Shown: positions 10,568 through 61,776, counted from the first letter of the stretch. The stretch: DNA of 64,000 nucleotides from a virus (IMGVR_UViG_3300022187_000019), one strand, 5' to 3'. Numbers and translations are program-made. The notes: generated from the letters alone by a model not told the origin.

Positions 10568-10583
10568 CTTTTCCCTTTCACGG

Positions 10584-10612
10584 TTGACGACAGTTTGGCG
10601 TTACATTATACC
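10584..10612 (+). promoter_or_regulatory. promoter TTGACG-17-TATACC
   Basis: family match; followed by a 13-aa upstream ORF and a 10-bp stem hairpin at 10692-10729 before rtcB. Confidence 0.5.
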
Positions 10613-10757
10613 GAGTCTCACTGAACGATGAAATCGGTAGACGAAACCAAGGAGATCATCATGAAGTGAATCGCACTGGCGTAGAGCCATCACAGAAATA
10701 TGTGGGCCGACGTAGAGGAAGCTATGTCGGCCCACCAAAAAAGAAGGAGACAAAGAC

Positions 10758-11999
10758 ATGCGCGTTCATCAGGTTGAGGACAGTTTCGGCCGCAAGAAGC
10801 TGGTCAAGCTGTGGGAGCCGGAGGGCTATCCGTTCGAGGCTGAGGCCATCCAGCAGATCGAGAACATGGCGCGGATGCCTTTCGTCCACAAGCACGTCGC
10901 CGTGATGCCTGACGCTCACGCCGGCAAGGGTTCGACCGTAGGCACCGTGATCGCCACCAAGGGCGCGATCGTCCCGGCGGCGGTCGGCGTCGATATTGGC
11001 TGTGGGATGATGGCGCTTCGCCTCTCCCTGACCGCCGACGATCTCCCGGACAGCCTATCCCATATCCGTGGGATGATCGAGGCGGCGGTTCCTCACGGTC
11101 GCGGAACCATGGATCAGATTCGTGGCGGGCGTGATCCCGGCTCATGGGGCAACCCGCCGGCCTCCGTCGTCGAGCGCTGGAAGTATCTGGAGAAGGGTTA
11201 TGACGCGATCATCGCCAAGCACCCTAAGATCGCCCAGCGTCGGCTTCCGACCCAGCATCTGGGATCGCTCGGCACCGGCAACCACTTCATCGAGCTTTGC
11301 CTCGACGAGGAGAACCGGGTCTGGGTGATGCTGCACTCCGGCTCGCGCGGTATCGGCAACGCGATCGGCACCTACTTCATCGAGAAGGCGAAGGAGGAGA
11401 TGCACCGCTATCACATCGCGGACTATCTGCCGGATCAGGACCTGTCCTATCTGGTAGAGCACACCGAGGTCTACGACGACTACTGCGAGGCGGTCGAGTG
11501 GGCACAGGAGTTCGCCATGGAGAACCGGAAGGAGATGATGGCGGCTGTCCTCCGGGTGCTGCGTCAGACCCTTCCCCCGTTCATGTCCGAGCAGATGGCG
11601 GTCAACTGCCACCACAACTATGTGACCCGAGAGTCGCACTACGGCGAGAATGTCTGGGTGACCCGCAAGGGTGCCGTGCAGGCTCGTGAGGGCACCTTGG
11701 GGATCATCCCCGGCTCCATGGGCACCGGCAGCTTCATCGTGGAGGGCAAGGGCAACCCGAACTCGTTCCACTCGTGCAGCCACGGAGCCGGGCGGACCAT
11801 GAGCCGGACCAAGGCCAAGGCGCTGATCACCATGGAGCAGCACGCCGAGGCCATGAAGGGGATCGAGGCCCGCCTTGATGCGGATGTGCTGGACGAGAGT
11901 CCGGCCGCCTACAAGCCGATCGGTGCGGTCATGGCCGCTCAGGACGATCTGGTCGAGATCAAGCACCGGCTCCGGCAGGTCTTGAACGTCAAGGGCTAA
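10758..11999 (+). CDS. rtcB: RNA-splicing ligase RtcB
   Basis: 413 aa; MPDAHAGKGS, NCHHN and HxH motifs; RBS AAGGAGA. Confidence 0.9.
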   Translation: MRVHQVEDSFGRKKLVKLWEPEGYPFEAEAIQQIENMARMPFVHKHVAVMPDAHAGKGSTVGTVIATKGAIVPAAVGVDIGCGMMALRLSLTADDLPDSLSHIRGMIEAAVPHGRGTMDQIRGGRDPGSWGNPPASVVERWKYLEKGYDAIIAKHPKIAQRRLPTQHLGSLGTGNHFIELCLDEENRVWVMLHSGSRGIGNAIGTYFIEKAKEEMHRYHIADYLPDQDLSYLVEHTEVYDDYCEAVEWAQEFAMENRKEMMAAVLRVLRQTLPPFMSEQMAVNCHHNYVTRESHYGENVWVTRKGAVQAREGTLGIIPGSMGTGSFIVEGKGNPNSFHSCSHGAGRTMSRTKAKALITMEQHAEAMKGIEARLDADVLDESPAAYKPIGAVMAAQDDLVEIKHRLRQVLNVKG

Positions 12000-13764: not shown

Positions 13765-13797
13765 CGCCTTCGGTAGAAATACCGAGGGCGTTTTTCG
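13765..13797 (+). terminator. rho-independent terminator
   Basis: CGCCTTCGG...CCGAGGGCG followed by TTTTTCGTTT. Confidence 0.6.
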
Positions 13798-13798
13798 T

Positions 13799-13827
13799 TT
13801 GACAAATCTTCCGGTCCGACTTACCCA
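13799..13827 (+). promoter_or_regulatory. promoter TTGACA-17-TACCCA
   Basis: spacer AATCTTCCGGT is the reverse complement of the conserved − strand spacer CCGGAAGATT. Confidence 0.45.
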
Positions 13828-13861
13828 AACCTTCTCATCAACCAATCTGTGGAGGAAGTCT

Positions 13862-14173
13862 ATGACATCAATCCCGTCTCCCCCTCTGGAGCACGGCAAC
13901 TGCCCAAGCTGCGGTGTTTCGCTGGATGGTGGAGGCATCTGGGAATTCTTCTACCAGAAGGCGCTTTCCGAGGACGCTATGTCTCCACAAGAGGCGGAGG
14001 CCGAAGCGGATCGGATAGCGGCGCTGTATGGTGCGTCGCGATCGAAGGGTCGATTGGGGCTTGCATCTGCGATGGTTGTGAACGACAGGGTTCGGTCCTA
14101 CCACTGCGGAGAATGTCAACAAGCATGGGATTCAAATACGGGGACCCTTATCCAGTCGCAGGTGCCGGCATGA
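13862..14173 (+). CDS. zinc-ribbon protein (CPSC...CGEC)
   Basis: 103 aa, strong RBS GGAGGAAG. Confidence 0.55.
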   Translation: MTSIPSPPLEHGNCPSCGVSLDGGGIWEFFYQKALSEDAMSPQEAEAEADRIAALYGASRSKGRLGLASAMVVNDRVRSYHCGECQQAWDSNTGTLIQSQVPA

Positions 14174-14565
14174 CCGATCAGGTATCGGATGCCACTTCAC
14201 GCCTGCTGACGTGGATTGCTGCGGAGACCCCGAAGGGGTTTCCCACCAATTTCACACCCAAAGACCGGGCGTGTCTGGCAGCGGATGTGCTGACGCTAAT
14301 TGATGCGCTCGACATTCGCAAGGTCCATCATGACAATTGTCTGGAATATGCTCCTTATACCAATGAGATATACGTCTATCTCGCTTGGGCGCTGACCCCG
14401 GACAAATGCACGCTGGTCGCGGTAGCCACCGACAAGGAGCACGCCGAAAGCACAAAGAAATCGGTCACGGATGCAGCAGCAGTTTTTCGTTGCGAGCGGG
14501 TGCGCCTCAACGAACCTCTCGGGGCGGGGAGACTTCAACAGGGAGGAATCGGTGGTCATGGCTGA
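14170..14565 (+). CDS. hypothetical protein
   Basis: ATGA overlap with the upstream stop; 131 aa. Confidence 0.5.
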   Translation: MTDQVSDATSRLLTWIAAETPKGFPTNFTPKDRACLAADVLTLIDALDIRKVHHDNCLEYAPYTNEIYVYLAWALTPDKCTLVAVATDKEHAESTKKSVTDAAAVFRCERVRLNEPLGAGRLQQGGIGGHG

Positions 14566-14791
14566 TGCCCGCACACCCGCACAGTCGGTCAAAGACTTCC
14601 GGGATCGCCACAAGATCGACCAGAGTCAGCTTGACCGGTTGATGGGGTTTTCCTCCGGCGGCCGGGCGACGCGTCGCTGGGAGGCTGAGGGCGCTCCTTA
14701 CTATGTGACGGTCCTCATGGCCTATGCGGACACCTACGGGCTGGGGAAGATGGAGGAATTGGCGGCAGCGCGCGAGCTTGCTCCCCAATAG
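14558..14791 (+). CDS. small HTH DNA-binding protein (Cro/XRE-like)
   Basis: RBS GGGAGGAA; DQSQLDRLMGFSSGG helix-turn-helix-like. Confidence 0.5.
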   Translation: MADARTPAQSVKDFRDRHKIDQSQLDRLMGFSSGGRATRRWEAEGAPYYVTVLMAYADTYGLGKMEELAAARELAPQ

Positions 14792-16629: not shown

Positions 16630-16910
16630 GCGACCACCCGGTCGGCGTGGACATCGGGATGGGCACCGGGGATGTCCCATCCAAACATCGAACCCATGTC
16701 CATGGCGAAGCGCTGCGCCGGGCTGACGCCCATGCGGTTGTTGAGGATCACCACCAGTTGCTCGAACGTGCAGTGCTCGTTCTCCGTGTAGCCTTCCGTG
16801 GGGAAGTAGCCGGTCTCGCCGCGCTTGATGATGATCAGTTCGCCGGTCGTGTTGAGGATCGAGTAGCAGTGCGCCGGCAGCGCTGCGAGGTTCTTTTCGA
16901 GTTGCGTCAT
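16626..16910 (-). CDS. hypothetical protein
   Basis: 95 aa; conserved leader AAGGAGACAGAC-ATG. Confidence 0.6.
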   Translation of the reverse strand: MTQLEKNLAALPAHCYSILNTTGELIIIKRGETGYFPTEGYTENEHCTFEQLVVILNNRMGVSPAQRFAMDMGSMFGWDIPGAHPDVHADRVVA

Positions 16911-16975
16911 GTCTGTCTCCTTGTTGCTGATGAATCTGGAATAGGACAAATCTTCCGGTTGGTCAAGCCTTACCA
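16911..16975 (-). promoter_or_regulatory. conserved promoter+leader module (TTGACC-AACCGGAAGATTTGTCC-TATTCC...CAACAAGGAGACAGAC)
   Basis: family member; see findings. Confidence 0.6.
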
Positions 16976-17905
16976 ACCTAGATTCTCTGCACAGATCGGG
17001 CCTATCGCCCGGTCGATTGATTCCGACTTCGTGAGTTTGCGCCCGCAGAACGAACACCTGCCCTCACGGCGGCCATAGGCAGTGGCGGCGGCCAGCGGGT
17101 CCATGGCAGCGGCAATGATCCGCTGCTCTTCCTCAGGGGTGCAGCCCCACGACTTGAGGAACTTCCCATCGGTGATCTTGCCGAGGTAGCGCTTCTCCCC
17201 ATCACGGTTCGTTTCCGTGAGGTGTTTGACGTAGATCGACCCGGCGTTCACGCCCGACCGGGCCGGCGAGAACATGAAGGTATCGAGGCGCAGCTTGGGA
17301 CGCGCGATGTCGCGGGCGATCGCAGCGGCGAATGCCTCCTCGATCTTGGCGAGTGATGCTTCCTCGATCACCGGCGCGGCTTCCTTCTGGGCGGCCTCCG
17401 CCTCAGTGCGGGCCTGTTCGCGGGCGATGAGCTTCTGCACCGCTGCCAACTGGCCGGGCGTCAGTTCACCATCCTTGAGCAGCTTGTCGAACATGCTCTT
17501 GGCGAAGTCGAACTTGGGAGCCTCCGTCGCGATCCATGCCCATTCGTCCGCGTGGGCGGTGACGAAGGCTTCGAGCTTGGTGGCGAGGTTCTTGCGCTTG
17601 CGCTCGGCATCAGCCGCCCGCTTCTCCGGTGAGGTCTTGAAGGGAACCTGTCCCTTGCCCTTGCACTTGAAGCAGGCCCCACCGACGCGGCCGGAATAGG
17701 TGATGAAGTTGCCCGACCCACGGCACGAGCCACAGGTGTCCCAATAGAGAACCGGGCCGGCGGCCGGGCGGGTGTTGTCCGAGACAGCCTTGGCGAACTC
17801 AGCAGCGCGTGCGGCGTCCTCGGTGCTCATCTGGCCCGTGCCGAAGATGTCGCCGATGTCATCGTCGAGATCGTCGTGAGCAAGGTTTCCACAAGTTCCG
17901 CACAT
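16970..17905 (-). CDS. zinc-finger protein with DUF6011-like C-terminus
   Basis: 311 aa; CxxC x4; C-terminal CSFCGRKLTKSESIDRAIGPIC. Confidence 0.6.
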   Translation of the reverse strand: MCGTCGNLAHDDLDDDIGDIFGTGQMSTEDAARAAEFAKAVSDNTRPAAGPVLYWDTCGSCRGSGNFITYSGRVGGACFKCKGKGQVPFKTSPEKRAADAERKRKNLATKLEAFVTAHADEWAWIATEAPKFDFAKSMFDKLLKDGELTPGQLAAVQKLIAREQARTEAEAAQKEAAPVIEEASLAKIEEAFAAAIARDIARPKLRLDTFMFSPARSGVNAGSIYVKHLTETNRDGEKRYLGKITDGKFLKSWGCTPEEEQRIIAAAMDPLAAATAYGRREGRCSFCGRKLTKSESIDRAIGPICAENLGW

Positions 17906-17975
17906 CGTCTGTCTCCTGATTCGCTGTTGCTGCGACTCAGATAGTTCAGCCCGGCGAATTGGTCAAGCACTTTCT
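17906..17975 (-). promoter_or_regulatory. conserved promoter+leader module
   Basis: TTGACC-17-TATCTG...CAGCGAATCAGGAGACAGACG-ATG. Confidence 0.55.
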
Positions 17976-18007
17976 CCACGAGTCCGCGCAGCGGACTCGT
18001 CCCTCAC

Positions 18008-18901
18008 TTACTCCGCATCCTTCCACCGGGAGTTCGTCCGGTCGATCGCATAGCTGGTGTTCAAGATGCCAAGTTCCGGGTTGCCCCGGTAGTGGGGCTG
18101 CACCAGCGTCACGGAGACGTTCTTGTAGCGTGGGTGGACGAGGAAGCGCAGATGCGCCCGGACGAAGTGCAGTTCGCGCTCAGGGCCGTCCCCCTGCCCC
18201 TGTGTGATGCTCAGGATGTGCTTGTCGATGTTGAGCCGCACCTCGTGATGCGGATGGAAGGGATATTTCCCACGCTTGAGTCGGCGGGCGTTCAGCCGCG
18301 CCTTGTCGCATTCCCGGATGCGGACGAGCTTCGGTGAATTGATGAACGCCAGCAGCGAGAACATCAGCGGCTTGGCGTGATCGAGCACGCCCGCATATTG
18401 CGAGTGGATCAGGATGGGATCAGTCGTCGCCCGCTGGTGGATCGCAAGCAGGGACAGGACAGCCGGGCTGGCGTTGTTGGCCTTGGCGGCGCGGGCGGCA
18501 AGCTGGTGATGATCTGCCCATACGAGGCTGTAGCTCTCCAGATCGTAGCGAACAGGGATGGCCATGATCTCACCATCAGGGAAGCCGATGAACACCAGCC
18601 CATGGCCTGCCGTGACGCTCTGCTCTTTCTTCGTGAGGCCGCCATAGAACAAGAACCCCATCGTGTGCTGCCCCTTGGGCGCTGGGATTTCGATCCATGT
18701 GTTATAGTCCGGCCAGCAGGTGAACTTGGCGATGCCGGCGATCTTGGTCGCGTCGCGTTCCATCAGTTCGACAGCCGCCTGATAGACATCGTCATGCACC
18801 GTGACGACCCTGACGCCCTCGAACAGTTCGCGCGCGAGGGGTTCGTCTTCACAGATGCGGTCGATGAAATTCAAGGCTGTCTCCTTCTCCGGTTGAGCCA
18901 T
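18008..18901 (-). CDS. hypothetical protein (start ATG 18901 or TTG 18868)
   Basis: conserved GGAGAAGGAGACAGCC-TTG suggests a TTG start. Confidence 0.55.
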   Translation of the reverse strand: MAQPEKETALNFIDRICEDEPLARELFEGVRVVTVHDDVYQAAVELMERDATKIAGIAKFTCWPDYNTWIEIPAPKGQHTMGFLFYGGLTKKEQSVTAGHGLVFIGFPDGEIMAIPVRYDLESYSLVWADHHQLAARAAKANNASPAVLSLLAIHQRATTDPILIHSQYAGVLDHAKPLMFSLLAFINSPKLVRIRECDKARLNARRLKRGKYPFHPHHEVRLNIDKHILSITQGQGDGPERELHFVRAHLRFLVHPRYKNVSVTLVQPHYRGNPELGILNTSYAIDRTNSRWKDAE

Positions 18902-18944
18902 AGCATTTACGGGAAGCAAGATATTCAGTCAATCACTTATTCCA

Positions 18945-18970
18945 TAAAAAAGGCCGCCCCGGAGGGCGGC
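18945..18970 (-). terminator. rho-independent terminator for the nadV operon
   Basis: GGCCGCCCC-GGA-GGGGCGGCC flanked by A6 on the + strand. Confidence 0.65.
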
Positions 18971-21969: not shown

Positions 21970-22320
21970 TCAAAGAACGATCCGGCCGGCCCGGCGAGCC
22001 TTGGTGGTATATTCGGCCATGGTCATCGTCGGGGTGAACGAGATGTCCCGTTCGACCGGGAGACCCAGCCCGCCCCGGATCGACTTGATCTCGGTCAGCG
22101 AGACGTAACCAAGCTCTGGTTCTCCGAGGCCCAGATCGCACAGACCGAACAGCGTGTCGCCGTCGGCATCGATCTCGGAGATAAGCCACGTCGCCGCGCC
22201 GTCCGGGGTGAAGAGCTTGAGCACGGGACGAAGATCGCTGCCGTCGCCGGAGCGCGAGGCGACCGCCCCGTTCTGCCGCAGCACCTCCATCTGGTCATCA
22301 AGGATGAGCTTCTGAGCCAT
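21970..22320 (-). CDS. hypothetical protein (Gly-rich, DUF2958-like)
   Basis: 116 aa; conserved leader. Confidence 0.55.
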   Translation of the reverse strand: MAQKLILDDQMEVLRQNGAVASRSGDGSDLRPVLKLFTPDGAATWLISEIDADGDTLFGLCDLGLGEPELGYVSLTEIKSIRGGLGLPVERDISFTPTMTMAEYTTKARRAGRIVL

Positions 22321-22392
22321 AGGGTCTGTCTCCTTCGATTCGTTGTTGATGGGGTCGAATTAGGACGATTCTTCCGGTTCGTCAACCGCCAT
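22321..22392 (-). promoter_or_regulatory. conserved promoter+leader module
   Basis: TTGACG-AACCGGAAGAATCGTCC-TAATTC...CAACAACGAATCGAAGGAGACAGACCCT-ATG. Confidence 0.6.
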
Positions 22393-22401
22393 TTTGCCGT
22401 T

Positions 22402-22791
22402 TCAATATTCCGGCTCGGTGGGCAGACCCTCGTCCTTGAGGGTTTCGAACTCGTCGTCGAATTCCATTTCGTCAGGCAGTTCGAACGTGAAGTCGTCGGA
22501 GACCAATGCCTCCGCATCCGCAAGCGCGCCGATCCAGTCTTCGGTGGGCGAGGCGCGGTCGCCTTCGAGCCAGCGCTCCGACATGTCGTCATAGGCGCTC
22601 TGCTGTTCGGCTTGGATGTCCTCGATCACGCCACGCAGTTCCTCACGCTTCTCGTTGAGGGCGTCGAGCAGGCCGCTCAGTTCGCCCCGCCATTCGTCGA
22701 GCTTGTCGTTGATCTCGGTTCGCATATCGTCGAGTTCGCCGGCCAGCTTCATCACGCGGGCGTTGTCGGTCTTGGTGATCTTGAAAGCCAT
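22402..22791 (-). CDS. hypothetical acidic coiled-coil protein
   Basis: 129 aa; conserved leader. Confidence 0.55.
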   Translation of the reverse strand: MAFKITKTDNARVMKLAGELDDMRTEINDKLDEWRGELSGLLDALNEKREELRGVIEDIQAEQQSAYDDMSERWLEGDRASPTEDWIGALADAEALVSDDFTFELPDEMEFDDEFETLKDEGLPTEPEY

Positions 22792-22865
22792 CGGTCTGTC
22801 TCCTTCGAGTCGTTGTTGATGAGAAGCGAATAGGAAGATTTGTCCGATGGGTCAAGACGGAAAAT
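22792..22865 (-). promoter_or_regulatory. conserved promoter+leader module
   Basis: TTGACC-17-TATTCG...CAACAACGACTCGAAGGAGACAGACCG-ATG. Confidence 0.6.
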
Positions 22866-22906
22866 GACGTGATGGCGCGTGATGATCGACCAAGAGCTAT
22901 TATGAA

Positions 22907-28440: not shown

Positions 28441-28785
28441 TCACGGGCTGACCCACCGGGTCTGGCGGATGACAGGCACGAAGCGCGGCCCCAGCCGGGT
28501 GACCGAGCCATCGTGGTAGCTCACGGCTTCGGTGAACTCATGCGCAGGACGCGCGAAGACCACTTCGGAGGACGGGGCCTCGCCGAAGGTCAGGAGTTCA
28601 AGGTCATCACATTCGGCCGGGCGATAGCACACCGCCGCCTCCCCGCTCGCCTCAAGCGTAACGTGGCCGGTCACCTCGTAGACCTTGCCCGACGACTGGT
28701 GCCGCCAGTGGGAGCCTACAGGGAATTGGCAAGACGCCGCTCGCTGATGTCCAGAAAGCATCTTGAGGGTCGGGCGGGTGGACAT
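28441..28785 (-). CDS. DUF1653-like protein
   Basis: start chosen at the second ATG, which has GGAGAA upstream. Confidence 0.5.
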   Translation of the reverse strand: MSTRPTLKMLSGHQRAASCQFPVGSHWRHQSSGKVYEVTGHVTLEASGEAAVCYRPAECDDLELLTFGEAPSSEVVFARPAHEFTEAVSYHDGSVTRLGPRFVPVIRQTRWVSP

Positions 28786-28843
28786 GACATTCTCCATATT
28801 GAAAATGATCGTTATGTCAAGTCAAAATGTCGGTCGTGACGCT

Positions 28844-30686: not shown

Positions 30687-31042
30687 GCGTGTGCGCCCTC
30701 CCCGGTCAGGCCGGCAGCGTCGGCAACAGCAAGGATCACGTCCGCGCGGTCCATGTAGAAATTCCAGTGCAGATATTCTTGCAGGCGCTTGCGAGGAGAC
30801 ATCGCCTTGATGTCTTCGACCGTATGGTCGCGCTCCAGCAGTGCGTGGATCAGATCGTGGTGGTCGATGCCGGTCTCGATCATGGCTTCCCGCACCAGAT
30901 AGCCGGCGGTGTTGTAATAGCGCACGGTCGGCTTTTCCTTCATGGGCGGCAAGCCCTGACGGCCCCGGCGCGGCATCGGGCGAAGGATGGTGGCGTCGGA
31001 CGCTGCGGCGCGGTCTACGGCAACCTGAGATGAAGCAAGCAT
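30683..31042 (-). CDS. hypothetical protein
   Basis: 119 aa. Confidence 0.45.
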   Translation of the reverse strand: MLASSQVAVDRAAASDATILRPMPRRGRQGLPPMKEKPTVRYYNTAGYLVREAMIETGIDHHDLIHALLERDHTVEDIKAMSPRKRLQEYLHWNFYMDRADVILAVADAAGLTGEGAHA

Positions 31043-31128
31043 TCTGTGTCTGTCTCCTTATTCTGTCTGTGACTTCATCTAGGATGATTCGACTGCCCGG
31101 TCAACCGATTCGTTCACCACTTAATCTA

Positions 31129-32979: not shown

Positions 32980-33342
32980 TCAGTCCTCGCTCGGATAGAA
33001 GGTCAGGTCGAAGCTGTAATAGGGTTCGACGAGCTTGCCGGTGGTGGAGCCGATCTCCATGCTCGCGGGGATCGCCCACTGGAACGGGCCGCTCTCCCAA
33101 CACACGATCCAGACGCCCGGCTGGCCGCCGAGGAAGTCGCCGGATTCTTCCGGGGTCTTCATGAAGACCTCGTAATCGGGGTTCTGACCGTAGGCGACGC
33201 AGGTGTCGCAGCAGACCTTGTAGGCCGCCTTCGCCATGGTCTCCGCCGTCTTGACCGGCAGCGCACCCAGCGTGAGCGCGAGGGTCGTGATGAAGTTGTT
33301 GGCGAAGTCCCGTTCAGCGCGTTCGATCGAGTCGAAATCCAT
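32980..33342 (-). CDS. hypothetical protein
   Basis: 120 aa, conserved leader. Confidence 0.55.
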   Translation of the reverse strand: MDFDSIERAERDFANNFITTLALTLGALPVKTAETMAKAAYKVCCDTCVAYGQNPDYEVFMKTPEESGDFLGGQPGVWIVCWESGPFQWAIPASMEIGSTTGKLVEPYYSFDLTFYPSED

Positions 33343-33410
33343 GGTCTGTCTCCTGAGTCGTTGTTGGTGACACCGAACTAGGACGATTCTTCCGGTTCGT
33401 CAACAGTCAT
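33343..33410 (-). promoter_or_regulatory. conserved promoter+leader module
   Basis: TTGACG-AACCGGAAGAATCGTCC-TAGTTC...CAACAACGACTCAGGAGACAGACC-ATG. Confidence 0.6.
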
Positions 33411-33773
33411 GTGTAAATGTCTGTCGCGGATACGCCAAAGCTCGGTGGCCTGACAGACGCCGCCGCGCCGGCCGAAGCGATCGGCCAGCCCGGTCGCCGC
33501 CAGAAGCACCGGTATCAGGTCCGGGTTCTCGGCGATATACTCGTCCCACAGCGCGGCGTAGAGCGCCCGCACCTCCCGGCCGTTGACCGGGCGCAGTCCC
33601 TTCGCCTCCTTGATGGAGAGGCCCGTGGAGCCGCAGGAGAAGACCTTGGCTCCTTGGTATAGCTGCTCGATCGTTTGCCCTTCCCTGCCCCTCAGACGGG
33701 CGTAGAATGCACTGAACCGACGGTCGCCGGCACTTGAGCATTCGAGGAAGGGAGGCTTGCCGTGGTAGATCAA
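33378..33773 (-). CDS. hypothetical protein (TTG start)
   Basis: 131 aa; upstream region disrupted by the endonuclease insertion. Confidence 0.4.
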   Translation of the reverse strand: MIYHGKPPFLECSSAGDRRFSAFYARLRGREGQTIEQLYQGAKVFSCGSTGLSIKEAKGLRPVNGREVRALYAALWDEYIAENPDLIPVLLAATGLADRFGRRGGVCQATELWRIRDRHLHMTVDEPEESS

Positions 33774-34469: not shown

Positions 34470-34989
34470 AAGGATATTGATGGAATGGCTTACCGTTCTT
34501 AGAGTAATTCATAATCTGCTGGGTCCGCCATGCGACCTTAGAGCCGTCCGGCTTAGTGACGATCAGCGTCGAATAGGACCAGACGTGGTTGCCGTGCAGC
34601 ACGGCAGCGGTCACGTCGCCGACCTTGTTGATGAGCTTGAGGATGAAGGCGTCGTATTCGGCCGCCGCCTGTTCCATCTGCTGCGTGATGTAGCGCTGTC
34701 CGCGCTCGGCATCCATGACGACATAGACCGGCCGGGTGCCGTTGTTCGACTGGTAGCCACGCGCCGGGTCCTGCTGCGTGACCGCGTGGAACAGGTTGTG
34801 CTTGACCCGCGCCGCGAAGAACTGGAGGCCGCCACCCAAGTCGCGCGGATAAGGGGCCGCCGCGTTGATGTTCCACTCATGCGCCGCGAGCGCGATGTGG
34901 ACGTTCTTGATCGCTTCCTCGGCCCCTTGCCGGGCGCGCTCGATCGCGTCTGCCCGGAGGGGTTCTACGGCTTGTCGGACGAAGTCCAT
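34444..34989 (-). CDS. hypothetical protein
   Basis: 181 aa, conserved leader. Confidence 0.55.
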   Translation of the reverse strand: MDFVRQAVEPLRADAIERARQGAEEAIKNVHIALAAHEWNINAAAPYPRDLGGGLQFFAARVKHNLFHAVTQQDPARGYQSNNGTRPVYVVMDAERGQRYITQQMEQAAAEYDAFILKLINKVGDVTAAVLHGNHVWSYSTLIVTKPDGSKVAWRTQQIMNYSKNGKPFHQYPSRKVKIAS

Positions 34990-35058
34990 GTCTGTCTCCT
35001 TCGATTAGTCTAGCTTGACCGAAGTAGGTTTGTTGTTCGATTCGGTCAATCTATTTTG
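34990..35058 (-). promoter_or_regulatory. conserved promoter+leader module
   Basis: TTGACC-17-TACTTC...AATCGAAGGAGACAGAC-ATG. Confidence 0.55.
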
Positions 35059-35114
35059 TCATCCTGATATTCCACCTATCGCTGATCAAACTTGTTTGTC
35101 AGCCAGCGGAGGAA

Positions 35115-35396: not shown

Positions 35397-35749
35397 CAGT
35401 AAGCCTCCAATCCATAGAAATAGCGCTGCTCGGCCCGAACCTCGGCTTCGTATTCCGCCTCGGCCTGCATCTCTTCACGCCACCGGGCGAGTTGGTCGGC
35501 GTTCATCCGATCGGTGTCGGCGACCTTCACCTTACCCGCACCATCACATGCCTCGCACTGGCGATCATAGACGCCGGCCTTGTAGTCCTCCCACGCGTCC
35601 GGGTCCCAATCGTCGAGGTCCTGCTGGGTCATCGCGCCCAGATGACGCGAGTGCGCGCCGTCGCCGTTGCAGGTGCCGCAGATCACCCACTTGGTGGGGA
35701 GTTCGATGCGGTTCTCGTCCTCATCGTAGAAGTAGGTGATGTTCGCCAT
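35396..35749 (-). CDS. zinc-ribbon protein (CGTCNGDG...CEACDGAG)
   Basis: conserved leader GGAGACAGACA-ATG. Confidence 0.5.
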   Translation of the reverse strand: MANITYFYDEDENRIELPTKWVICGTCNGDGAHSRHLGAMTQQDLDDWDPDAWEDYKAGVYDRQCEACDGAGKVKVADTDRMNADQLARWREEMQAEAEYEAEVRAEQRYFYGLEAY

Positions 35750-35815
35750 TGTCTGTCTCCGGTGTCGCTGTAACACGAATCGGAATAGGACAATTGTTCC
35801 TCTTCGTCAATCGAC
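35750..35815 (-). promoter_or_regulatory. conserved promoter+leader module
   Basis: TTGACG-17-TATTCC-GATTCG...GGAGACAGACA-ATG. Confidence 0.55.
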
Positions 35816-36016
35816 ATTCGCGAGACGATACCGCGTCTGCTGATACACCGGGCGGCTGGGGTCCTGTTCTTTGATCACCTCGCCGGCGCAGACCATCTCC
35901 ATCAAGGGCGATGCCAGTCCCTCCCCGCCGCGCAGGGCAATGTCGGGATAGGTCGCGTCTCCCATCTGCTGGAGGATAGTGGTGATCGCGAGCTTGTCAC
36001 GTTCGCTGTGAGTCAT
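35807..36016 (-). CDS. hypothetical small protein
   Basis: 69 aa. Confidence 0.4.
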   Translation of the reverse strand: MTHSERDKLAITTILQQMGDATYPDIALRGGEGLASPLMEMVCAGEVIKEQDPSRPVYQQTRYRLANVD

Positions 36017-37504: not shown

Positions 37505-37740
37505 AGCCTGATCTCCTCGATCTGGGCCGGCGTCGCCGCGCGTGCCCATTCGACGATCTGCCACATGGTCAGCGCCAGTTCGGGGTCGATCCGAAACTCG
37601 TGCGTCTCGCTGTAAGTGTAGAGCGCTTCGGACAGCGCACGGTTCGACTGCGCCACCGCCGGGACCGGCAGACCGGCCTCCAAGGTGTTGTAGCGGGCGC
37701 GCGGCGTGTTCTGCTCGTCGTCTTCGAGATCAAAAGGCAT
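37501..37740 (-). CDS. hypothetical protein
   Basis: 79 aa. Confidence 0.45.
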   Translation of the reverse strand: MPFDLEDDEQNTPRARYNTLEAGLPVPAVAQSNRALSEALYTYSETHEFRIDPELALTMWQIVEWARAATPAQIEEIRL

Positions 37741-37799
37741 TAAGGCTGTCTCCGAGTGATTCTTGATTGCCTGTTAGTAGGCTTGGACCTGACTCGATG

Positions 37800-38036
37800 T
37801 CAAGCCATAATGTCGGTGTCAGCCACGGTCTTCGCCATCAGCGCCTTGAGGTCTTCGATCTCGACCTCGTAGGCGGCGATCGCCCCGGTGAGGATGTGCT
37901 TGTTCTTGCGCTGCCACCACGGCAGGCTGGCACGGGATTCCCGCAGCGCTTTCAACTGCGCCCCAAGCCGGTGGAGCAGACCGACGGACGGGAGAACCAT
38001 ACCGGGATAGGAGGGCGTGGGGGACTGAACGATCAA
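37800..38036 (-). CDS. hypothetical protein
   Basis: 78 aa. Confidence 0.4.
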   Translation of the reverse strand: MIVQSPTPSYPGMVLPSVGLLHRLGAQLKALRESRASLPWWQRKNKHILTGAIAAYEVEIEDLKALMAKTVADTDIMA

Positions 38037-38469: not shown

Positions 38470-38652
38470 TCAGCCGACCATGTTCACGTCGCGGGCGACG
38501 TAGCCGGCGCGCTCGGCGATGCGAGCAGCCTGATCGCGGTTCGTCGCTCGGACCAGCACATCCGTGATCGTCTTGGGGTCCTTGCCGTCCCAGACGCCGA
38601 CGCCATAGGCGTGTGGCGCTTTCGATTCCGGGTTCAGTTCAATCATGGTCAT
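38470..38652 (-). CDS. hypothetical protein
   Basis: 60 aa, conserved leader. Confidence 0.45.
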   Translation of the reverse strand: MTMIELNPESKAPHAYGVGVWDGKDPKTITDVLVRATNRDQAARIAERAGYVARDVNMVG

Positions 38653-38720
38653 CGCCTGTCTCCTCAGCCGTTGTTACACGAATCGGATTAAGCCGGATGA
38701 CCGATTCGGTCAAGCACTTT
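38653..38720 (-). promoter_or_regulatory. conserved promoter+leader module
   Basis: GTGCTTGACCGAATCGGTC-...-TAATCC-GATTCG...GAGGAGACAGGCG-ATG. Confidence 0.55.
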
Positions 38721-38726
38721 ATCCAC

Positions 38727-39014
38727 TTACGCCCTACATTTGCAGGTAGTTTCCTCGGTGCGCTCCATGTCGCGGATGCGGTTCAGCAGCGTGTCGCGAT
38801 AGCCTTTGTCATAGGCATCGCCGGAGGAGAACATGAAGCTCTCCTCGTAGAAATGCTCGATCGCCGTCCGGTTGTCCCAATTATGCTGCAACAGTTCCTT
38901 GGCGGAATCCACGCCCCGGAAATATTTGACCTGTGCTGCCTCTGGCCAAAAGGACCAGACAAGCGCGATCAGGCCCGCGCCGATGGCGAAGGATGTGATG
39001 CTAAAGTCGATCAT
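38727..39014 (-). CDS. membrane-anchored hypothetical protein
   Basis: 95 aa. Confidence 0.4.
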   Translation of the reverse strand: MIDFSITSFAIGAGLIALVWSFWPEAAQVKYFRGVDSAKELLQHNWDNRTAIEHFYEESFMFSSGDAYDKGYRDTLLNRIRDMERTEETTCKCRA

Positions 39015-40168: not shown

Positions 40169-40824
40169 GCTTCCTCCACCAGCTTCCAGCCGGTATTTTC
40201 GTGTAGGGGATCACCGGCAAAGGCAGTCTCGACATTGAGACCCGGTTTGCCATCTTTCTTGAGCAGGCGGACGAACGAGGTGCCCATGTTCGGTAGGCTC
40301 CAGTTGCCCCGATTTGCCGGCAAGTTGGTGTCGGCGCGGCGCGTTTCGATTAGGCCGAAGACGACCTCCTCGCGCTTACCCATACGGCCGGCACGGATCG
40401 TCTTGTAGACCTTCTTACCTTCGTGCGGGTGGCCCACGATCGCGCGCTGTTCCGCCCATTTCTCCTCGCGATAAAGGGCCTGCGCCTGATCGCTCAGTAG
40501 GTTCAGTTCGGCCTTCTGCTCAGCAGCGATCTCCGCTTTCAGGGCGGCGATGCGGCGGTCGGCTTCCGCCTTGAGTTCACCCTGCCGGGCTTGGATCACC
40601 TTCTGCGCGGTGGTGATCACGCTGATCGCGCGCGGAAGGGTGTCAGATACCCGGAATGGCGCGACGGAGGCCAGCATGATAATGGACCCATCTTCCTTGG
40701 TGAAGAGCTTCCCATCCTTGCGGCTGATCAGATAGACCTCACCGTAGGTCGATTGCGAGACCTCTACGATCTCGACTTCGGTGCTGTGGGGCGCGTCGTG
40801 GACTGCTTCGGTGAGGTATACCAT
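40165..40824 (-). CDS. hypothetical protein
   Basis: 219 aa, conserved leader. Confidence 0.55.
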   Translation of the reverse strand: MVYLTEAVHDAPHSTEVEIVEVSQSTYGEVYLISRKDGKLFTKEDGSIIMLASVAPFRVSDTLPRAISVITTAQKVIQARQGELKAEADRRIAALKAEIAAEQKAELNLLSDQAQALYREEKWAEQRAIVGHPHEGKKVYKTIRAGRMGKREEVVFGLIETRRADTNLPANRGNWSLPNMGTSFVRLLKKDGKPGLNVETAFAGDPLHENTGWKLVEEA

Positions 40825-40890
40825 TGTCTGTCTCCAAGTTCGTTGCTTCGCGAATCGGAATAGGACAATACTTCCTCCACGTCAACGGTG
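40825..40890 (-). promoter_or_regulatory. conserved promoter+leader module
   Basis: TTGACG-17-TATTCC-GATTCG...GGAGACAGACA-ATG. Confidence 0.55.
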
Positions 40891-61751: not shown

Positions 61752-61776
61752 CCATTTGCGCGGTGGAATTAGTGCT

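What the first reader, a model, noticed from the sequence alone, without database searches (positions are those of the whole stretch)
16911..16975. About 75-bp promoter-plus-leader module reused in front of at least 15 genes on both strands
Fourteen copies were confirmed by eye. Ten face − strand genes, at 16911, 17906, 18869, 22321, 22792, 33343, 34990, 35750, 38653 and 40825. Four face + strand genes, at 61777, 62388, 63223 and 63899. Related versions occur at 5446, 10584 and 13799. Consensus: (GTGC)TTGAC(C/G) - 17 nt - TA(G/T/A)(A/T)(A/T/C)(C/A) - CGAATC... - CAACAA(C/G)GA(A/C)TCGAAGGAGACAGAC(N0-3) - ATG. The element is typical of the alphaproteobacterial housekeeping sigma promoter type (TTGACGS...GCTANAWC). 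In six − strand copies the spacer is almost invariant (AACCGGAAGAATCGTCC); its core CCGGAAGATT also appears inverted in the + strand promoter at 13799. In + strand copies the -35 is embedded in the palindrome GACCGAATCGGTC. Such invariance beyond the -35/-10 implies a dedicated repressor or operator and uniform translation initiation (GGAGACAGAC at fixed spacing). The module also allows reassigning several starts in the ORF track: TTG at 18868, the second ATG at 28785, TTG at 62447.
Basis: seen in the sequence. Interest (0 to 1): 0.65.

Follow-up and report, generated by a model that had tools for sequence, protein, structure and literature searches.

The report
Phage promoter-leader cassettes with matching small RNA
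A large phage of marine alphaproteobacteria starts about twenty of its gene groups with the same compact promoter plus ribosome-site cassette, in two versions, and it also carries a conserved small RNA whose loop is the exact complement of that ribosome site, so the phage may be able to silence all these genes at once.

Summary
A position-weight scan finds about 20 copies scoring 19-44 bits (best shuffle 5.8). All of them point at genes, and 18 lie 53-74 nt upstream of a start codon of unrelated ORFs.

The window comes from a CbK-like siphophage related to Erythrobacter phage XM05. The cassette is found across this family: XM05 has 44 copies, and vB_EliS-L02, Lacusarx and several IMG/VR contigs also carry it.

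It is two promoter classes, not one module:
- **Class A** (GTGGAAAAAGTGC-TTGACC-GAATC...TAGAAA-CGAATCA) clusters just downstream of terL, in the probable terminal-repeat, pre-early region.
- **Class B** (TTGACG-N4-GGAAGAATCGTCC-TAttcc) carries a 13-bp palindromic operator in the spacer. The operator changes symmetrically between phages.

Both classes share the leader and the block GGAGACAGAC.

New findings:
- One conserved hairpin-plus-terminator RNA per genome (window 6746-6833) displays GUCUGUCUCC, the exact complement of that block. In Lacusarx the RNA and the ribosome site have changed together.
- GANTC sites inside the cassettes almost all fit the GcrA-preferred heptamer YGAKTCK.
- A conserved Cro-like 77-aa protein (14558-14791) is the best operator-binding candidate.

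Function is inferred, not shown.

The parts
16908..16980 (-). Class B cassette (the given finding). TTGACC starts at 16966, operator GGAAGATTTGTCC is at 16944-16956, followed by -10 TATTCC, GGAGACAGAC at 16920-16911 and ATG at 16910.
22318..22399 (-). Class B cassette. TTGACG starts at 22385, operator GGAAGAATCGTCC is at 22363-22375, GGAGACAGAC at 22333-22324, ATG at 22320.
22789..22869 (-). Class B cassette. TTGACC starts at 22855, operator GGACAAATCTTCC is at 22833-22845, ATG at 22791.
33340..33417 (-). Class B cassette. TTGACG starts at 33403, operator GGAAGAATCGTCC is at 33381-33393, ATG at 33342.
35747..35824 (-). Class B cassette with a looser operator (GGAACAATTGTCC). TTGACG starts at 35810, ATG at 35749.
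40822..40899 (-). Class B cassette with a looser operator (GGAAGTATTGTCC). TTGACG starts at 40885, ATG at 40824.
48281..48371 (-). Class B cassette with a longer leader. TTGACG starts at 48357, operator GGACGAATCATCC is at 48335-48347, RBS block is GGAGACTGAC, GTG at 48283.
31040..31118 (-). Cassette with a partial class B operator (AGTCGAATCATCC). TTGACC starts at 31104, GGAGACAGAC at 31057-31048, ATG at 31042.
6453..6495 (+). Class B promoter without an RBS. TTGACA starts at 6467, operator GGAAGAATCATCC is at 6477-6489, -10 is TATCTG. It heads the non-coding transcript that ends in the anti-RBS hairpin.
   Evidence: XM05 has the same promoter directly in front of the hairpin
6746..6833 (+). 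Candidate small RNA, or 3' end of a roughly 330-nt RNA. A weak promoter-like site lies upstream (TTGACC 6717, TATCAG 6740). Hairpin 1 has the stem 6753-6760 / 6788-6795. Its loop displays GUCUGUCUCC (6765-6774), the exact complement of GGAGACAGAC. An intrinsic terminator follows at 6798-6825, then TTTTCTTT.
61762..61841 (+). Class A cassette, the first one after terL. GGTGGAATTAGTGC-TTGACC (61776)-GAATC, -10 TAGCAA, GGAGACAGAC at 61826-61835, ATG at 61839.
62378..62449 (+). Class A cassette. GGTGGAAAAAGTGC-TTGACC (62392)-GAATCGGTC, -10 TAGAAA, then CGAATCA, RBS GGGAGACACG, TTG at 62447.
63211..63280 (+). Class A cassette. TTGACC starts at 63225, -10 is TAGAAA followed by CGAATCA, GGAGACAGAC at 63268-63277, ATG at 63278.
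63889..63959 (+). Class A cassette preceded by an intrinsic terminator (63861-63880 plus a T run). TTGACC starts at 63903, GGAGACAGAC at 63946-63955, ATG at 63957.
38650..38727 (-). Hybrid cassette. The upstream half is class A (AGTGGATAAAGTGC-TTGACC-GAATCGGTC). The downstream half is class B-like (TAATCC-GATTCG). ATG at 38652.
17903..17980 (-). Class A-like cassette. CGTGGAGAAAGTGC-TTGACC (17966), -10 TATCTG, GGAGACAGAC at 17916-17907, ATG at 17905.
18872..18946 (-). Class A-like cassette behind a terminator. TATGGAATAAGTGA-TTGACT (18932), RBS GGAGACAGCC, TTG start at 18874.
34987..35063 (-). Class A-like cassette with the vB_EliS-L02 type of upstream element. AAAATAGA-TTGACC (35049)-GAATCG, GGAGACAGAC at 34999-34990, ATG at 34989.
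54116..54188 (-). Degenerate class A-like cassette. GTAGAATAAGTGG-TTGATC (54174)-GAATC, RBS AGGAGG, ATG at 54118.
43967..44044 (-). Promoter of the same architecture without class marks. GAAAAATTGCC-TTGACG (44030), -10 TAACAG, RBS AGGAGG, TTG at 43969. It precedes an SPFH/Band 7 gene.
37738..37817 (-). Weak copy (12 bits). TTGACA starts at 37803, RBS GGAGACAGCC, ATG at 37740.
13785..13864 (+). Promoter of the operon that ends with the Cro-like protein. TTGACA (13799) is followed at once by AATCTTCCGG, the inverted left half of the class B operator. XM05 and Lacusarx have the same arrangement.
14558..14791 (+). A 77-aa protein conserved at the same position in XM05 (76% identity), vB_EliS-L02 (52%), Lacusarx (45%, as the N-terminus of LAV_00121) and RXM (35%). 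The model is a five-helix bundle whose top structural matches are all Cro/C-protein/HipB/HigA-type HTH proteins, though the scores are weak. It is the candidate operator-binding protein.
5432..5502 (+). Related promoter TTGACG (5446)-N17-TAGAGA with CGAATCG in the spacer. It lies upstream of the tmRNA region.
10570..10760 (+). Related promoter TTGACG (10584)-N17-TATACC-GAGTC with a long leader. RBS AAGGAGACAAAGAC, ATG at 10758 (RtcB).
28783..28834 (-). Related promoter TTGACA (28820) with a very short leader. ATG at 28785.

Best explanation
The repeat is a compact 'start cassette' of a large CbK-like siphophage of Erythrobacteraceae. It consists of:
- a promoter for the host RNA polymerase with its primary sigma factor (-35 TTGAC(C/G), 17-nt spacer, -10 TA(G/T)nnn with an invariant A at position 2);
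- a leader of roughly 20-25 nt, if transcription starts about 7 nt after the -10;
- a GGAG Shine-Dalgarno inside a conserved 10-mer GGAGACAGAC;
- a start codon 0-6 nt later.

Each copy opens a transcription unit of otherwise unrelated genes. There are two promoter classes.

**Class A.** An A-tract or UP-like element GTGGAAAAAGTGC sits upstream, CGAATCG abuts the -35, the -10 is weak (TAGAAA), and CGAATCA lies at the start site. This class drives the many small genes packed just downstream of terL, the region that is the terminal repeat in phiCbK and Lacusarx. It is most likely the immediate-early or pre-early host-takeover set.

**Class B.** A 13-bp palindromic operator (GGAAGAATCGTCC type) fills the spacer up to the -10. 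This class heads units in the long block of early and middle genes. It is most likely switched by a dimeric phage protein, and the conserved Cro-like 77-aa protein is the best candidate.

Both classes share the translation-initiation block. That block is the exact complement of the loop of one conserved small RNA per genome. The RNA most likely pairs with the ribosome-binding sites of all promoter-proximal genes and shuts off or tunes their translation later in infection.

**Shown here:** the repeat, its position relative to genes, the two classes and their distribution, conservation across the phage family, the palindrome and its symmetric variation, and the RNA hairpin, its terminator and its complementarity.

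**Inferred:** use of host sigma, timing, identity of the operator protein, and the action of the RNA.
For: **Repeat and position.** 20 sites score 19-44 bits against a shuffle maximum of 5.8. 18 of 20 lie 53-74 nt upstream of same-strand start codons, and the downstream proteins are not paralogous.

**Phage context.** The window has a 13-tRNA array, a primase 77% identical to that of XM05, RtcB, NAMPT and TerL.

**Family-wide occurrence.**
- The 15-mer GTGCTTGACCGAATC occurs up to 19 times per locus in IMG/VR contigs of 24-176 kb.
- It occurs only as single hits in the listed bacterial genomes.
- XM05 has 44 PWM hits. 31 are class A at 78.1-96.5 kb, immediately downstream of terL (97.9-99.6 kb). 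12 are class B or mixed at 103.9-138 kb, and one more is at 149651.
- The layout is the same in vB_EliS-L02 (terL 129.2-130.9 kb, class A 133.7-150 kb).
- It is the same in Lacusarx (terL 117.7-119.5 kb, class A 121.6-128.7 kb).
- It is the same in the window (terL 58452-60215, class A from 61776).
- The region after terL is the terminal repeat in phiCbK and Lacusarx.

**Selection rather than recent copying.** Spacer and leader positions between the conserved blocks are randomised. TGGAAAAAG, which was not part of the search pattern, carries 1.3-2.0 bits, and the -10 A carries 2.0 bits over 153 copies.

**Operator.** The 13-mer GGA[ACT][GA]A[AT]T[CT][GAT]TCC occurs 7 times in the window. Six of these are at the fixed register TTGACN-N4-[13-mer]-TA. 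In XM05, 11 of 12 occurrences are at that register. The variants GGACGAaTCGTCC (window, XM05, Lacusarx) and GGACAAaTTGTCC (L02, RXM) differ at mirror positions.

**Small RNA.**
- The hairpin plus terminator folds with z = -4.4.
- GUCUGUCUCC occurs once per genome in antisense orientation, at the same locus upstream of HslV and primase, in the window, XM05, four distinct IMG/VR versions and L02.
- The outer stem differs between lineages but stays paired: CCGCCGGA/UCCGGUGG, GCCGGGAG/CUCCCGGC, GUGUCCCGGA/UCCGGGACAC, GCCGGGC/GCCCGGC.
- The CUCC core is predicted unpaired with probability 0.80-0.97 in all six folded versions.
- A covariance model built without L02 and Lacusarx finds both at the syntenic place, with E = 1.8e-8 and 2e-4.
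- In Lacusarx the cassette RBS is GGGAGACACC and the RNA loop is UGUCUCCC, so the two have changed together.
- In the 43 kb of RXM examined, neither the GGAGACA-type RBS nor the RNA is present.
- Predicted duplex energies have a median of -20.9 kcal/mol for cassette start regions and -10.1 for the other 97 start regions.
Against: - No transcript, TSS or protein-DNA data exist for any member of this phage family in the papers searched.
- The -10 lacks T at -7, and in many relatives also the first T (CAGAAA, GAAAAC). Recognition by unaided host sigma is therefore not certain.
- Class A copies also occur inside the class B block of the window (17966, 18932, 38713), so the spatial separation is not strict.
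- The small-RNA evidence rests on few independent lineages: the window, the XM05 group, L02 and Lacusarx.
- A proposed extra covarying pair at RBS position 11 holds for the window and the XM05 group but fails in L02.
- A promoter directly in front of the hairpin is clear only in XM05. Elsewhere the hairpin is the 3' end of a longer RNA, or follows only a weak promoter-like site.
- The same pattern would arise if the 10-mer were a double-stranded DNA site.
- The Cro-like assignment rests on a single-sequence model (pLDDT 77) and Foldseek E-values of 0.26 or worse. Pfam finds nothing.
Confidence: 0.72

Rival explanations
1. The conserved CGAATC(G/A) units are the functional core. The cassettes would be methylation-reading promoters. 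The host CcrM methylates GANTC, and the host cell-cycle factor GcrA, a sigma-70 cofactor, is needed to open these promoters with their weak -10. Phage early transcription would thereby be tied to the host's replication and cell-cycle state. This can coexist with the main explanation.
For: - GANTC is under-represented in the window (153 observed, 191-228 expected), yet 29 sites lie in 1,520 bp of cassettes at fixed offsets of +6, +14, +29/30 and +44 from TTGAC.
- 22 of 24 (window) and 81 of 87 (XM05) in-cassette sites fit YGAKTCK on one strand, against 33-38% of sites elsewhere.
- CGAATCA is the reverse of TGATTCG, the top GcrA motif. GcrA-activated Caulobacter promoters have such sites near -20 and from +2 to +30, and GcrA stimulates open-complex formation (PMC4647560).
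- The middle base varies (GAATC, GATTC, GACTC, GAGTC) at equivalent positions.
- The site next to the -35 is kept in L02 and Lacusarx at a register shifted by one base.
- phiCbK-like phages encode GcrA homologues (PMC3556154).
Against: - No GcrA homologue and no CcrM-like (DPPY) methyltransferase were found in the window or in XM05. The annotated XM05 'DNA methyltransferase' has no Pfam or PDB support. Virion DNA methylation is therefore unknown.
- In class B the spacer GANTC is often replaced (GATTT, AATTG) while the palindrome is kept. In L02 and RXM it is absent.
- In Lacusarx the site after the -10 is mostly lost.
- The sites at -29..-25 and -6..-1 lie outside the two zones reported for Caulobacter.
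- The copies are not independent samples.
Confidence: 0.3
2. The similarity reflects copying rather than regulation. The cassettes would be mobile or recombination-spread promoter units, like the promoter-early stem-loop cassettes of T4-type phages. Their extra conservation would be inherited, and the antisense 10-mer upstream of the primase would be a stranded remnant of one copy.
For: - Hybrid copies exist. 38713 has a class A upstream half and a class B downstream half.
- Cassettes flank small, poorly conserved ORFs in variable regions.
- Some copies follow terminator hairpins, such as 18932 and 63903.
Against: - Positions between the conserved blocks are randomised while the blocks stay fixed over 150-240 copies and across phages with only 56-77% primase identity.
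- The operator changes symmetrically.
- The antisense copy sits in the loop of a hairpin whose stem covaries, is followed by a terminator, is syntenic in all lineages, and has no ORF behind it on the other strand.
Confidence: 0.12
3. One or both classes are read by a phage-modified polymerase or a phage sigma-like factor rather than by the unmodified host holoenzyme. In class A the conserved GTGGAAAAAGTGC would then be a factor-binding box, not a UP-like element.
For: - The -10 is poor in many copies (CAGAAA, GAAAAC) while the upstream block is very strongly conserved.
- Relatives encode RNAP-associated RapA-like and T5 A1-like proteins.
- The Lacusarx homologue of the 77-aa protein carries a sigma region 4-like C-terminus and is annotated SigA.
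Against: - A perfect TTGAC -35 at a canonical 17-nt spacing from a hexamer with the invariant -11 A is what the primary sigma reads.
- Genes in the first DNA to enter the cell must be read by the host enzyme.
- The sigma-like C-terminus is absent from the window, XM05 and L02 homologues.
Confidence: 0.12
4. GGAGACAGAC is a double-stranded DNA site for a protein, and the copy at 6765-6774 is just one more site in the opposite orientation. No RNA-RNA pairing would be involved.
For: Co-change of the motif at both kinds of place (Lacusarx) is equally expected for a DNA site. No expression data exist.
Against: - More than 30 copies per genome are all co-oriented with genes at a fixed 0-6 nt from the start codon, where GGAG serves as the SD.
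- The single inverted copy lies in a predicted accessible loop of a covarying hairpin followed by an intrinsic terminator.
Confidence: 0.15

Closest known systems
T4 early promoters and PeSL (promoter-early stem-loop) cassettes; T5 pre-early and SPO1 host-takeover regions (established knowledge, not tested here)
   Same: Many strong host-sigma promoters share a consensus that extends well beyond -35 and -10 and includes an upstream A-rich element. Each is paired with a strong RBS and placed in front of small, unrelated early genes. In T5 and SPO1 these genes are concentrated in the terminal repeat, which enters the cell first.
   Different: Here the host is an alphaproteobacterium and the -10 has a relaxed form (TAGAAA or TATTCC, no T at -7). 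GANTC heptamers are built into the consensus. There are two classes, one carrying an operator inside the spacer. The RBS-to-start spacer is itself conserved. A stem-loop partner is present at only some copies.
GcrA/CcrM-dependent sigma-70 promoters of Caulobacter (Haakonsen et al. 2015, PMC4647560)
   Same: These are primary-sigma promoters carrying GANTC in the extended context YGAKTCK close to the start site and in the spacer. GcrA compensates at the step of open-complex formation.
   Different: This is phage DNA, not chromosome. The site positions only partly match the -20 and +2..+30 zones. No phage GcrA or CcrM was found. Methylation and GcrA dependence are untested.
Cro/CI-type and restriction-modification controller (C) protein operators
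   Same: A short palindromic operator overlaps the core promoter. There is a small dimeric HTH candidate protein, and a (half-)operator sits at the promoter of the regulator's own operon.
   Different: The operator is repeated at a fixed register in about 7-13 promoters spread over about 40 kb, rather than clustered at one switch region. Binding is not shown.
P1/P7 c4 antisense RNA, and the anti-SD 'toxic small RNA' family RF02278
   Same: A short hairpin RNA with a terminator has a loop or 5' seed (UGUCUCC in RF02278 and here) that is complementary to a ribosome-binding site and blocks translation in trans.
   Different: c4 has one or two targets in its own operon. Here one RNA matches the shared RBS block of 12-20 or more phage transcription units. 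The Rfam match is only 23 bits against a gathering score of 50, so this is not a member of that family.
T4 RegB and RegA (PMC3014915)
   Same: This is global post-transcriptional shut-off of early genes through a feature common to their translation-initiation regions. RegB cuts GGAG Shine-Dalgarno sequences of early mRNAs. RegA competes with ribosomes at about 30 start regions.
   Different: Those are proteins. Here the proposed effector is an RNA that recognises the shared block by base pairing.

Membership tests
Primary-sigma (sigma-70/RpoD type) promoter | -35 hexamer close to TTGACA | tested here: met
   TTGAC(C/G/A) is present in all copies of 19 bits or more, except TTGATC at 54174.
Primary-sigma (sigma-70/RpoD type) promoter | 17 +/- 1 nt spacer to a -10 hexamer with A at position 2 and T at position 6 | tested here: inconclusive
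   The spacer is 17 nt throughout, and the A at position 2 carries 2.0 bits over 153 copies. T at position 6 is absent, so the E. coli-type scan lists none of the copies. This fits the relaxed alphaproteobacterial consensus TTGACGS...GCTANAWC, which I recall from the literature and did not test.
Primary-sigma (sigma-70/RpoD type) promoter | Transcription start 6-8 nt downstream of the -10, dependent on host holoenzyme | not testable with these tools
   No transcript data were found for this phage family.
GcrA-activated methylated promoters | GANTC within about 40 bp of the start site in the context YGAKTCK | tested here: met
   15 of 17 window cassettes and 42 of 42 XM05 cassettes have at least one site. 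22 of 24 and 81 of 87 sites fit YGAKTCK, against 33-38% elsewhere. Motif from PMC4647560.
GcrA-activated methylated promoters | Sites centred near -20 or between +2 and +30, none over the -10 | tested here: inconclusive
   The offsets +14 (about -21..-17) and +44 (about +9..+13) fit. The offsets +6 (about -29..-25) and +29/30 (about -6..-1) do not fit strictly. No site lies over the -10.
GcrA-activated methylated promoters | N6-adenine methylation of the sites and GcrA-dependent activation | not testable with these tools
   No phage CcrM or GcrA was found. Host enzymes would be required.
Operator-controlled promoter (Cro / C-protein type) | Palindromic operator overlapping the core promoter at a fixed register | tested here: met
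   A 13-mer with 4-5 of 6 symmetric positions sits at TTGACN-N4-[13-mer]-TA. Six of 7 window occurrences and 11 of 12 XM05 occurrences are at that register.
Operator-controlled promoter (Cro / C-protein type) | Half-sites change together between relatives | tested here: met
   GGACGA.TCGTCC (window, XM05, Lacusarx) against GGACAA.TTGTCC (L02, RXM).
Operator-controlled promoter (Cro / C-protein type) | A cognate dimeric DNA-binding protein | tested here: inconclusive
   The candidate at 14558-14791 is conserved and syntenic. The model has pLDDT 77, and all top Foldseek hits are XRE/Cro/C-protein folds, but with E of 0.26 or worse. Pfam finds nothing. The PDB profile search gives only Aca3 at E = 0.87.
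Trans-acting anti-RBS small RNA | Discrete RNA gene: own terminator and a promoter | tested here: inconclusive
   The intrinsic terminator is conserved with compensatory changes. A strong promoter directly upstream exists only in XM05. The window has a 12-15-bit site at 6717 and a class B promoter 280 nt upstream.
Trans-acting anti-RBS small RNA | Accessible seed complementary to the target RBS, conserved and co-evolving with the targets | tested here: met
   The 10-nt perfect complement is invariant in 7 versions. The CUCC core is predicted unpaired with probability 0.80-0.97. The Lacusarx seed UGUCUCCC matches its own RBS GGGAGACA.
Trans-acting anti-RBS small RNA | Expression, and an effect on target translation | not testable with these tools
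   No RNA-seq or genetic data are available.
Rfam RF02278 (Betaproteobacteria toxic sRNA) | Score at or above the family gathering threshold | tested here: not met
   23.1 bits against a threshold of 50, E = 0.03. Only the UGUCUCC seed and the terminator align.
T4-type PeSL mobile regulatory cassette | Early promoter coupled to a conserved stem-loop, flanking small ORFs in plastic regions | tested here: inconclusive
   Promoters in front of small unrelated ORFs: met. A stem-loop or terminator immediately upstream is seen at some copies only, such as 18932 and 63903.

The most novel reading that the evidence does not exclude
A virulent phage encodes a single small RNA whose loop is an 'anti-address' for the shared ribosome-binding block (GGAGACAGAC) of all its promoter-proximal early genes. 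One RNA would therefore switch off, or time, translation of a regulon of 12-30 or more of the phage's own transcription units. This would be an RNA counterpart of T4 RegA and RegB, and it would explain why the spacer between SD and start codon is conserved across a whole phage family. In the same cassettes, GcrA-type methylation heptamers would couple early transcription to the host cell cycle.
Probability: 0.4. Interest if true: 0.8.

Novelty: new variant of a known kind. Interest (0 to 1): 0.64.

Why it matters
Multi-copy early promoters are a classic feature of large lytic phages. They have not been described for the CbK-like phages of sphingomonads. The papers on vB_EliS-L02 and Lacusarx either do not discuss promoters at all (vB_EliS-L02) or report only generic BPROM/ARNold predictions of one promoter and terminator per region (Lacusarx).

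The cassette gives an immediate, sequence-based map of transcription units and true start codons for a family in which most genes are 'hypothetical'.

Three layers of control can be read from the DNA:
- a palindromic operator that splits the promoters into two temporal classes;
- CcrM/GcrA-type heptamers embedded in the promoters;
- a conserved small RNA complementary to the common ribosome-binding block.

If the RNA works as proposed, it would be the first case I know of where a phage regulates a large set of its own early genes through one trans-acting anti-RBS RNA. Isolates and hosts exist for XM05, vB_EliS-L02 and Lacusarx, so every step is directly testable. The cassettes are also ready-made strong expression parts for Erythrobacter and Sphingomonadales engineering.

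Tried and rejected
1. I looked for a phage GcrA (tblastn with a recalled GcrA sequence) and a CcrM-like methyltransferase (DPPY plus FxGxG motif scan of all six frames of the window, XM05 and the loci). Nothing was found. The XM05 'DNA methyltransferase' has no Pfam or PDB support. A self-contained phage methylation and GcrA circuit is therefore not supported.

2. The first IMG/VR pattern for the small RNA (GTCTGTCTCCAAN{0,1}CACG) returned 40 loci, all unrelated chance matches. A pattern from the XM05 group found the real homologues.

3. A single-protein locus search with the primase found only distant relatives. The two-sequence alignment worked.

4. The idea that RBS position 11 covaries with the base 5' of the RNA seed holds for the window (A:U) and the XM05 group (C:G). 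It fails in vB_EliS-L02 (C opposite C). I dropped it as evidence.

5. MAFFT could not align the eight RNA versions sensibly. I used single-sequence folds and a covariance model instead. The other covariance-model hits are generic terminators.

There is no evidence that the cassette copies a host promoter.

7. The HTH at 22936-23256 was rejected as the module regulator. It is AlpA/excisionase-like and belongs to the integrase module.

The single-sequence model is of moderate quality only.

9. Sequence strings of the cassette were not found in any relevant paper.
Full report
**What is there.** The given coordinates (16911-16975, - strand) read GGC-TTGACC-AACCGGAAGATTTGTCC-TATTCC-AGATTCATCAGCAACAA-GGAGACAGAC-ATG. 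The element fits exactly between the stop of the upstream gene and the ATG at 16910.
- AAGGAGACAGAC with up to 2 mismatches occurs 22 times, against 4.5 +/- 2.3 in shuffles.
- I built a 50-column PWM from 16 copies. It scores 20 sites at 19-44 bits, while three shuffled windows peak at 5.8 bits. It also recovers copies that were not in the seed set: 62392, 6467, 54174 and 44030.
- 18 of the 20 lie 53-74 nt upstream of a same-strand start codon of an ORF of at least 60 aa. The exceptions are 6467, which heads non-coding RNA, and 63903, whose ORF leaves the window.
- The proteins behind the copies are not paralogous. The cassette is therefore not carried along by gene duplication.

**Context.** The window is phage DNA.
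- It has a 13-tRNA array, a permuted alpha-type tmRNA, DUF5906 primase, RtcB and NAMPT/Nudix genes, and TerL at 58452-60215.
- A 40-kb block of small - strand genes fills much of it.
- The primase is 77% identical to that of Erythrobacter phage XM05, 66% to vB_EliS-L02, 64% to Sphingobium phage Lacusarx and 56% to Citromicrobium phage RXM. These are CbK-like prolate siphophages (PMC9127768, PMC5648845).

**Two classes, family-wide.** The copies fall into two promoter classes that share one leader.
- Class A: (G)TGGAAAAAGTGC-TTGACC-GAATC(G)-N12-TAGAAA-CGAATCA-...-GGAGACAGAC-N0-3-ATG.
- Class B: TTGAC(G/C)-N4-GGAAGAATCGTCC-TATTCC-GATTCG-...CAACAAC...-GGAGACAGAC-ATG.
- The class A 15-mer GTGCTTGACCGAATC is multi-copy in IMG/VR contigs of 24-176 kb, with up to 19 copies in one 15-kb locus. 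In the bacterial genomes listed it occurs only as single scattered hits.
- XM05 has 44 PWM hits. 31 are class A on one strand at 78.1-96.5 kb, directly downstream of terL (97.9-99.6 kb). 12 are class B or mixed at 103.9-138 kb, and one is at 149651.
- vB_EliS-L02 has terL at 129.2-130.9 kb and about 30 class A-like copies at 133.7-150 kb.
- Lacusarx has terL at 117.7-119.5 kb and class A-like copies at 121.6-128.7 kb.
- The window repeats this layout: terL, then 1.5 kb of repeats, then class A from 61776.
- In phiCbK the terminal repeat starts inside terL and runs about 10 kb downstream (PMC3556154). In Lacusarx the region after terL has double read coverage (PMC5648845). Class A therefore most likely drives the small genes of the terminal repeat. 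This is an inference by synteny.

**Selection, not recent copying.** Over 153 non-identical class A copies the block TGGAAAAAG, which was not part of the search pattern, carries 1.3-2.0 bits per position. The A at -10 position 2 carries 2.0 bits. The 12 spacer positions and most leader positions are near 0 bits.

**Promoter type.** A perfect TTGAC, a constant 17-nt spacer and a TA(G/T)nnn hexamer with an invariant A fit a primary-sigma promoter.
- T at -7 is missing, and an E. coli-type scan lists none of the copies.
That consensus is literature knowledge and was not tested here.
- The A-tract GAAAAAGTG just upstream of the -35 resembles the proximal UP-element subsite AAAAAARNR of E. coli. 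This is a resemblance from memory, so it is a lead only.

**Class B operator.** The conserved spacer is a 13-bp palindrome.
- The pattern GGA[ACT][GA]A[AT]T[CT][GAT]TCC occurs 7 times in the window. Six are at the register TTGACN-N4-[13-mer]-TA. The seventh abuts the integrase ATG at 24530-24542.
- The pattern occurs 12 times in XM05, 11 of them at that register.
- Between phages the two half-sites change at mirror positions. The window, XM05 and Lacusarx have GGACGA-a-TCGTCC. vB_EliS-L02 and RXM have GGACAA-a-TTGTCC.

**Candidate operator protein.**
- The 77-aa protein at 14558-14791 is conserved and syntenic in all four named relatives.
- In Lacusarx it is the N-terminal part of LAV_00121, annotated SigA.
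- Its single-sequence model (pLDDT 77) gives only Cro/C-protein/HipB/HigA/P22 c2-type top matches, at weak E-values. Pfam finds nothing.
- The promoter of its operon carries an inverted half-operator (TTGACA-AATCTTCCGG) in the window, XM05 and Lacusarx, and a matching half in RXM (TTGACA-ATTTGTCC). This suggests autoregulation.
It sits beside a tyrosine integrase and an attP-like region.

**GANTC heptamers.**
- GANTC is under-represented in the window (153 observed, 191-228 expected). Yet 29 sites fall in 1,520 bp of cassettes, at offsets +6, +14, +29/30 and +44 from TTGAC.
- 22 of 24 (window) and 81 of 87 (XM05) in-cassette sites fit YGAKTCK, against 33-38% of sites elsewhere. The dominant forms are CGAATCG and CGAATCA, which is the reverse of TGATTCG.
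- YGAKTCK, best TGATTCG, is the sequence preferred by Caulobacter GcrA. [quoted passage not shown]
- The weak -10 of class A would suit such help.
- Counter-evidence: no phage GcrA or CcrM was found. The spacer GANTC of class B is often lost while the palindrome stays. The site after the -10 is mostly lost in Lacusarx.
- I keep this as a non-exclusive rival at about 0.3.

**The complementary small RNA.**
- Of 13 exact GGAGACAGAC copies in the window, 12 are co-oriented with genes. One (6765-6774) is inverted.
- On the + strand it reads GUCUGUCUCC, inside a hairpin with stem 6753-6760 / 6788-6795. An intrinsic terminator follows (6798-6825 plus TTTTCTTT). The fold energy is -41.4 kcal/mol, z = -4.4.
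- It lies downstream of a class B promoter (6467) and a weak promoter-like site (6717), just upstream of the HslV and primase genes.
- The same element occurs once per genome at the same place in XM05 (directly behind a class B promoter), in four distinct IMG/VR versions and in vB_EliS-L02.
- The 10-mer is invariant while its flanks vary.
- The outer stem differs between lineages but stays paired, and the terminator shows compensatory changes.
- The CUCC core is predicted unpaired with probability 0.80-0.97 in every version.
- A covariance model built from five sequences finds the vB_EliS-L02 element (36.7 bits, E = 1.8e-8) and the Lacusarx element (23.9 bits, E = 2e-4) at the syntenic positions.
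- In Lacusarx the class A RBS is ACGGGAGACACCAAAUG and the RNA loop reads UGUCUCCC. The loop has lost the part matching ...GAC and gained a C matching the extra G.
- In the 43 kb of RXM examined there is neither a GGAGACA-type RBS nor such an RNA.
- The predicted duplex between the loop region and start regions has a median of -20.9 kcal/mol for the 19 cassette-headed genes and -10.1 for the 97 others.
- ACAGAC is not complementary to the 16S rRNA 3' tail as I recall it, so SD pairing does not explain its conservation.
- Rfam gives only a sub-threshold match to the anti-SD 'toxic sRNA' family, which shares the seed UGUCUCC and a terminator (23 bits against 50).
- A 2025 review of phage sRNAs lists the P1/P7 c4 RNA as an RBS-blocking example but no regulon-wide case (PMC12197685).
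- T4 does the analogous job with proteins. RegB cuts GGAG of early mRNAs, and RegA competes with ribosomes at about 30 start regions (PMC3014915).

**Caveats.**
- Independent lineages are few.
- A direct promoter for the RNA is clear only in XM05.
- No expression data exist.
- A double-stranded DNA-site reading cannot be excluded by sequence alone.

The promoter-plus-leader reading and the operator reading hold. A single family and some details do not.
- The cassettes themselves are a new example of a known kind, multi-copy phage early promoters.
- The two-class architecture with a co-evolving operator, the embedded GcrA-type heptamers and above all the conserved anti-RBS RNA make it a new variant worth experimental follow-up.

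Noticed in passing
window 5922-6376 (+): A phage-encoded permuted (two-piece) alphaproteobacterial tmRNA gene. Rfam scores are RF01849 at 68.8 bits and RF04321 at 79.6 bits. ARAGORN did not report it. Lacusarx has an annotated ssrA at the syntenic position.
   Followed up: partly
window 6496-6745 (+): About 250 nt of unassigned RNA lies between the class B promoter at 6467 and the anti-RBS hairpin. It contains a T-arm-like GAGGGTTCGACTCCCTC. No Rfam family reaches threshold. XM05 lacks this stretch, while the IMG/VR relatives and vB_EliS-L02 have a different insert there.
   Followed up: partly
window 60216-61775: This is a 1.5-kb non-coding region between terL and the first class A promoter. 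GTTAACCTTAAC occurs 5 times at an exact 27-bp period (60369-60488). The inverse GTTAAGGTTAAC occurs about 8 times at 61594-61737, with further copies at 62337 and 63184 just upstream of class A promoters. TATGGAyCGAGGyCATTTTG repeats occur at 60238 and 60270 and 6 more times at 61290-61480. It may be a packaging site, a terminal-repeat boundary or an origin.
   Followed up: no
window 22936-25027: A complete-looking integration module sits inside a CbK-like 'lytic' genome. It has a tyrosine integrase with an arm-binding domain (23174-24529, -) and an AlpA/excisionase-like HTH (22936-23256, +). The attP-like non-coding stretch carries a tRNA 3' fragment (...GGTTCGAACCCTAGTGCGTCCACCA, near 24790-24820) and at least 8 CTGACCTAC repeats. 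Lacusarx and RXM have a recombinase at the same place.
   Followed up: partly
window 24530-24542: One copy of the class B 13-mer operator (GGAAGATTTGTCC) lies outside any promoter. It abuts the integrase start codon directly, so the same protein may also control the integrase.
   Followed up: no
window 3-1564 (+): An array of 13 tRNA genes (Phe, Arg, Ser x2, Leu x3, Thr, His, Gln x2, Cys, Trp). Its order is shared with the end of the Lacusarx tRNA array.
   Followed up: no
L007, L040, L063, L038 and XM05 (for example XM05 78570, 84446, 95249): A subset of class A leaders in relatives carries a small 5' hairpin with compensatory variants (CCGCaatcaaGCGG, CCGGaagcaaCCGG, GCGCactcaaGCGC) between CGAATCA and the RBS. 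It may be an mRNA-stabilising 5' stem. The window copies do not have it.
   Followed up: no
window 28783-28834 (-): In the promoter TTGACA-N17-TATGGA the -10 overlaps the GGAG of the RBS, and the ATG at 28785 lies about 7 nt after the -10. Transcripts from this promoter would therefore be leaderless or nearly so.
   Followed up: no
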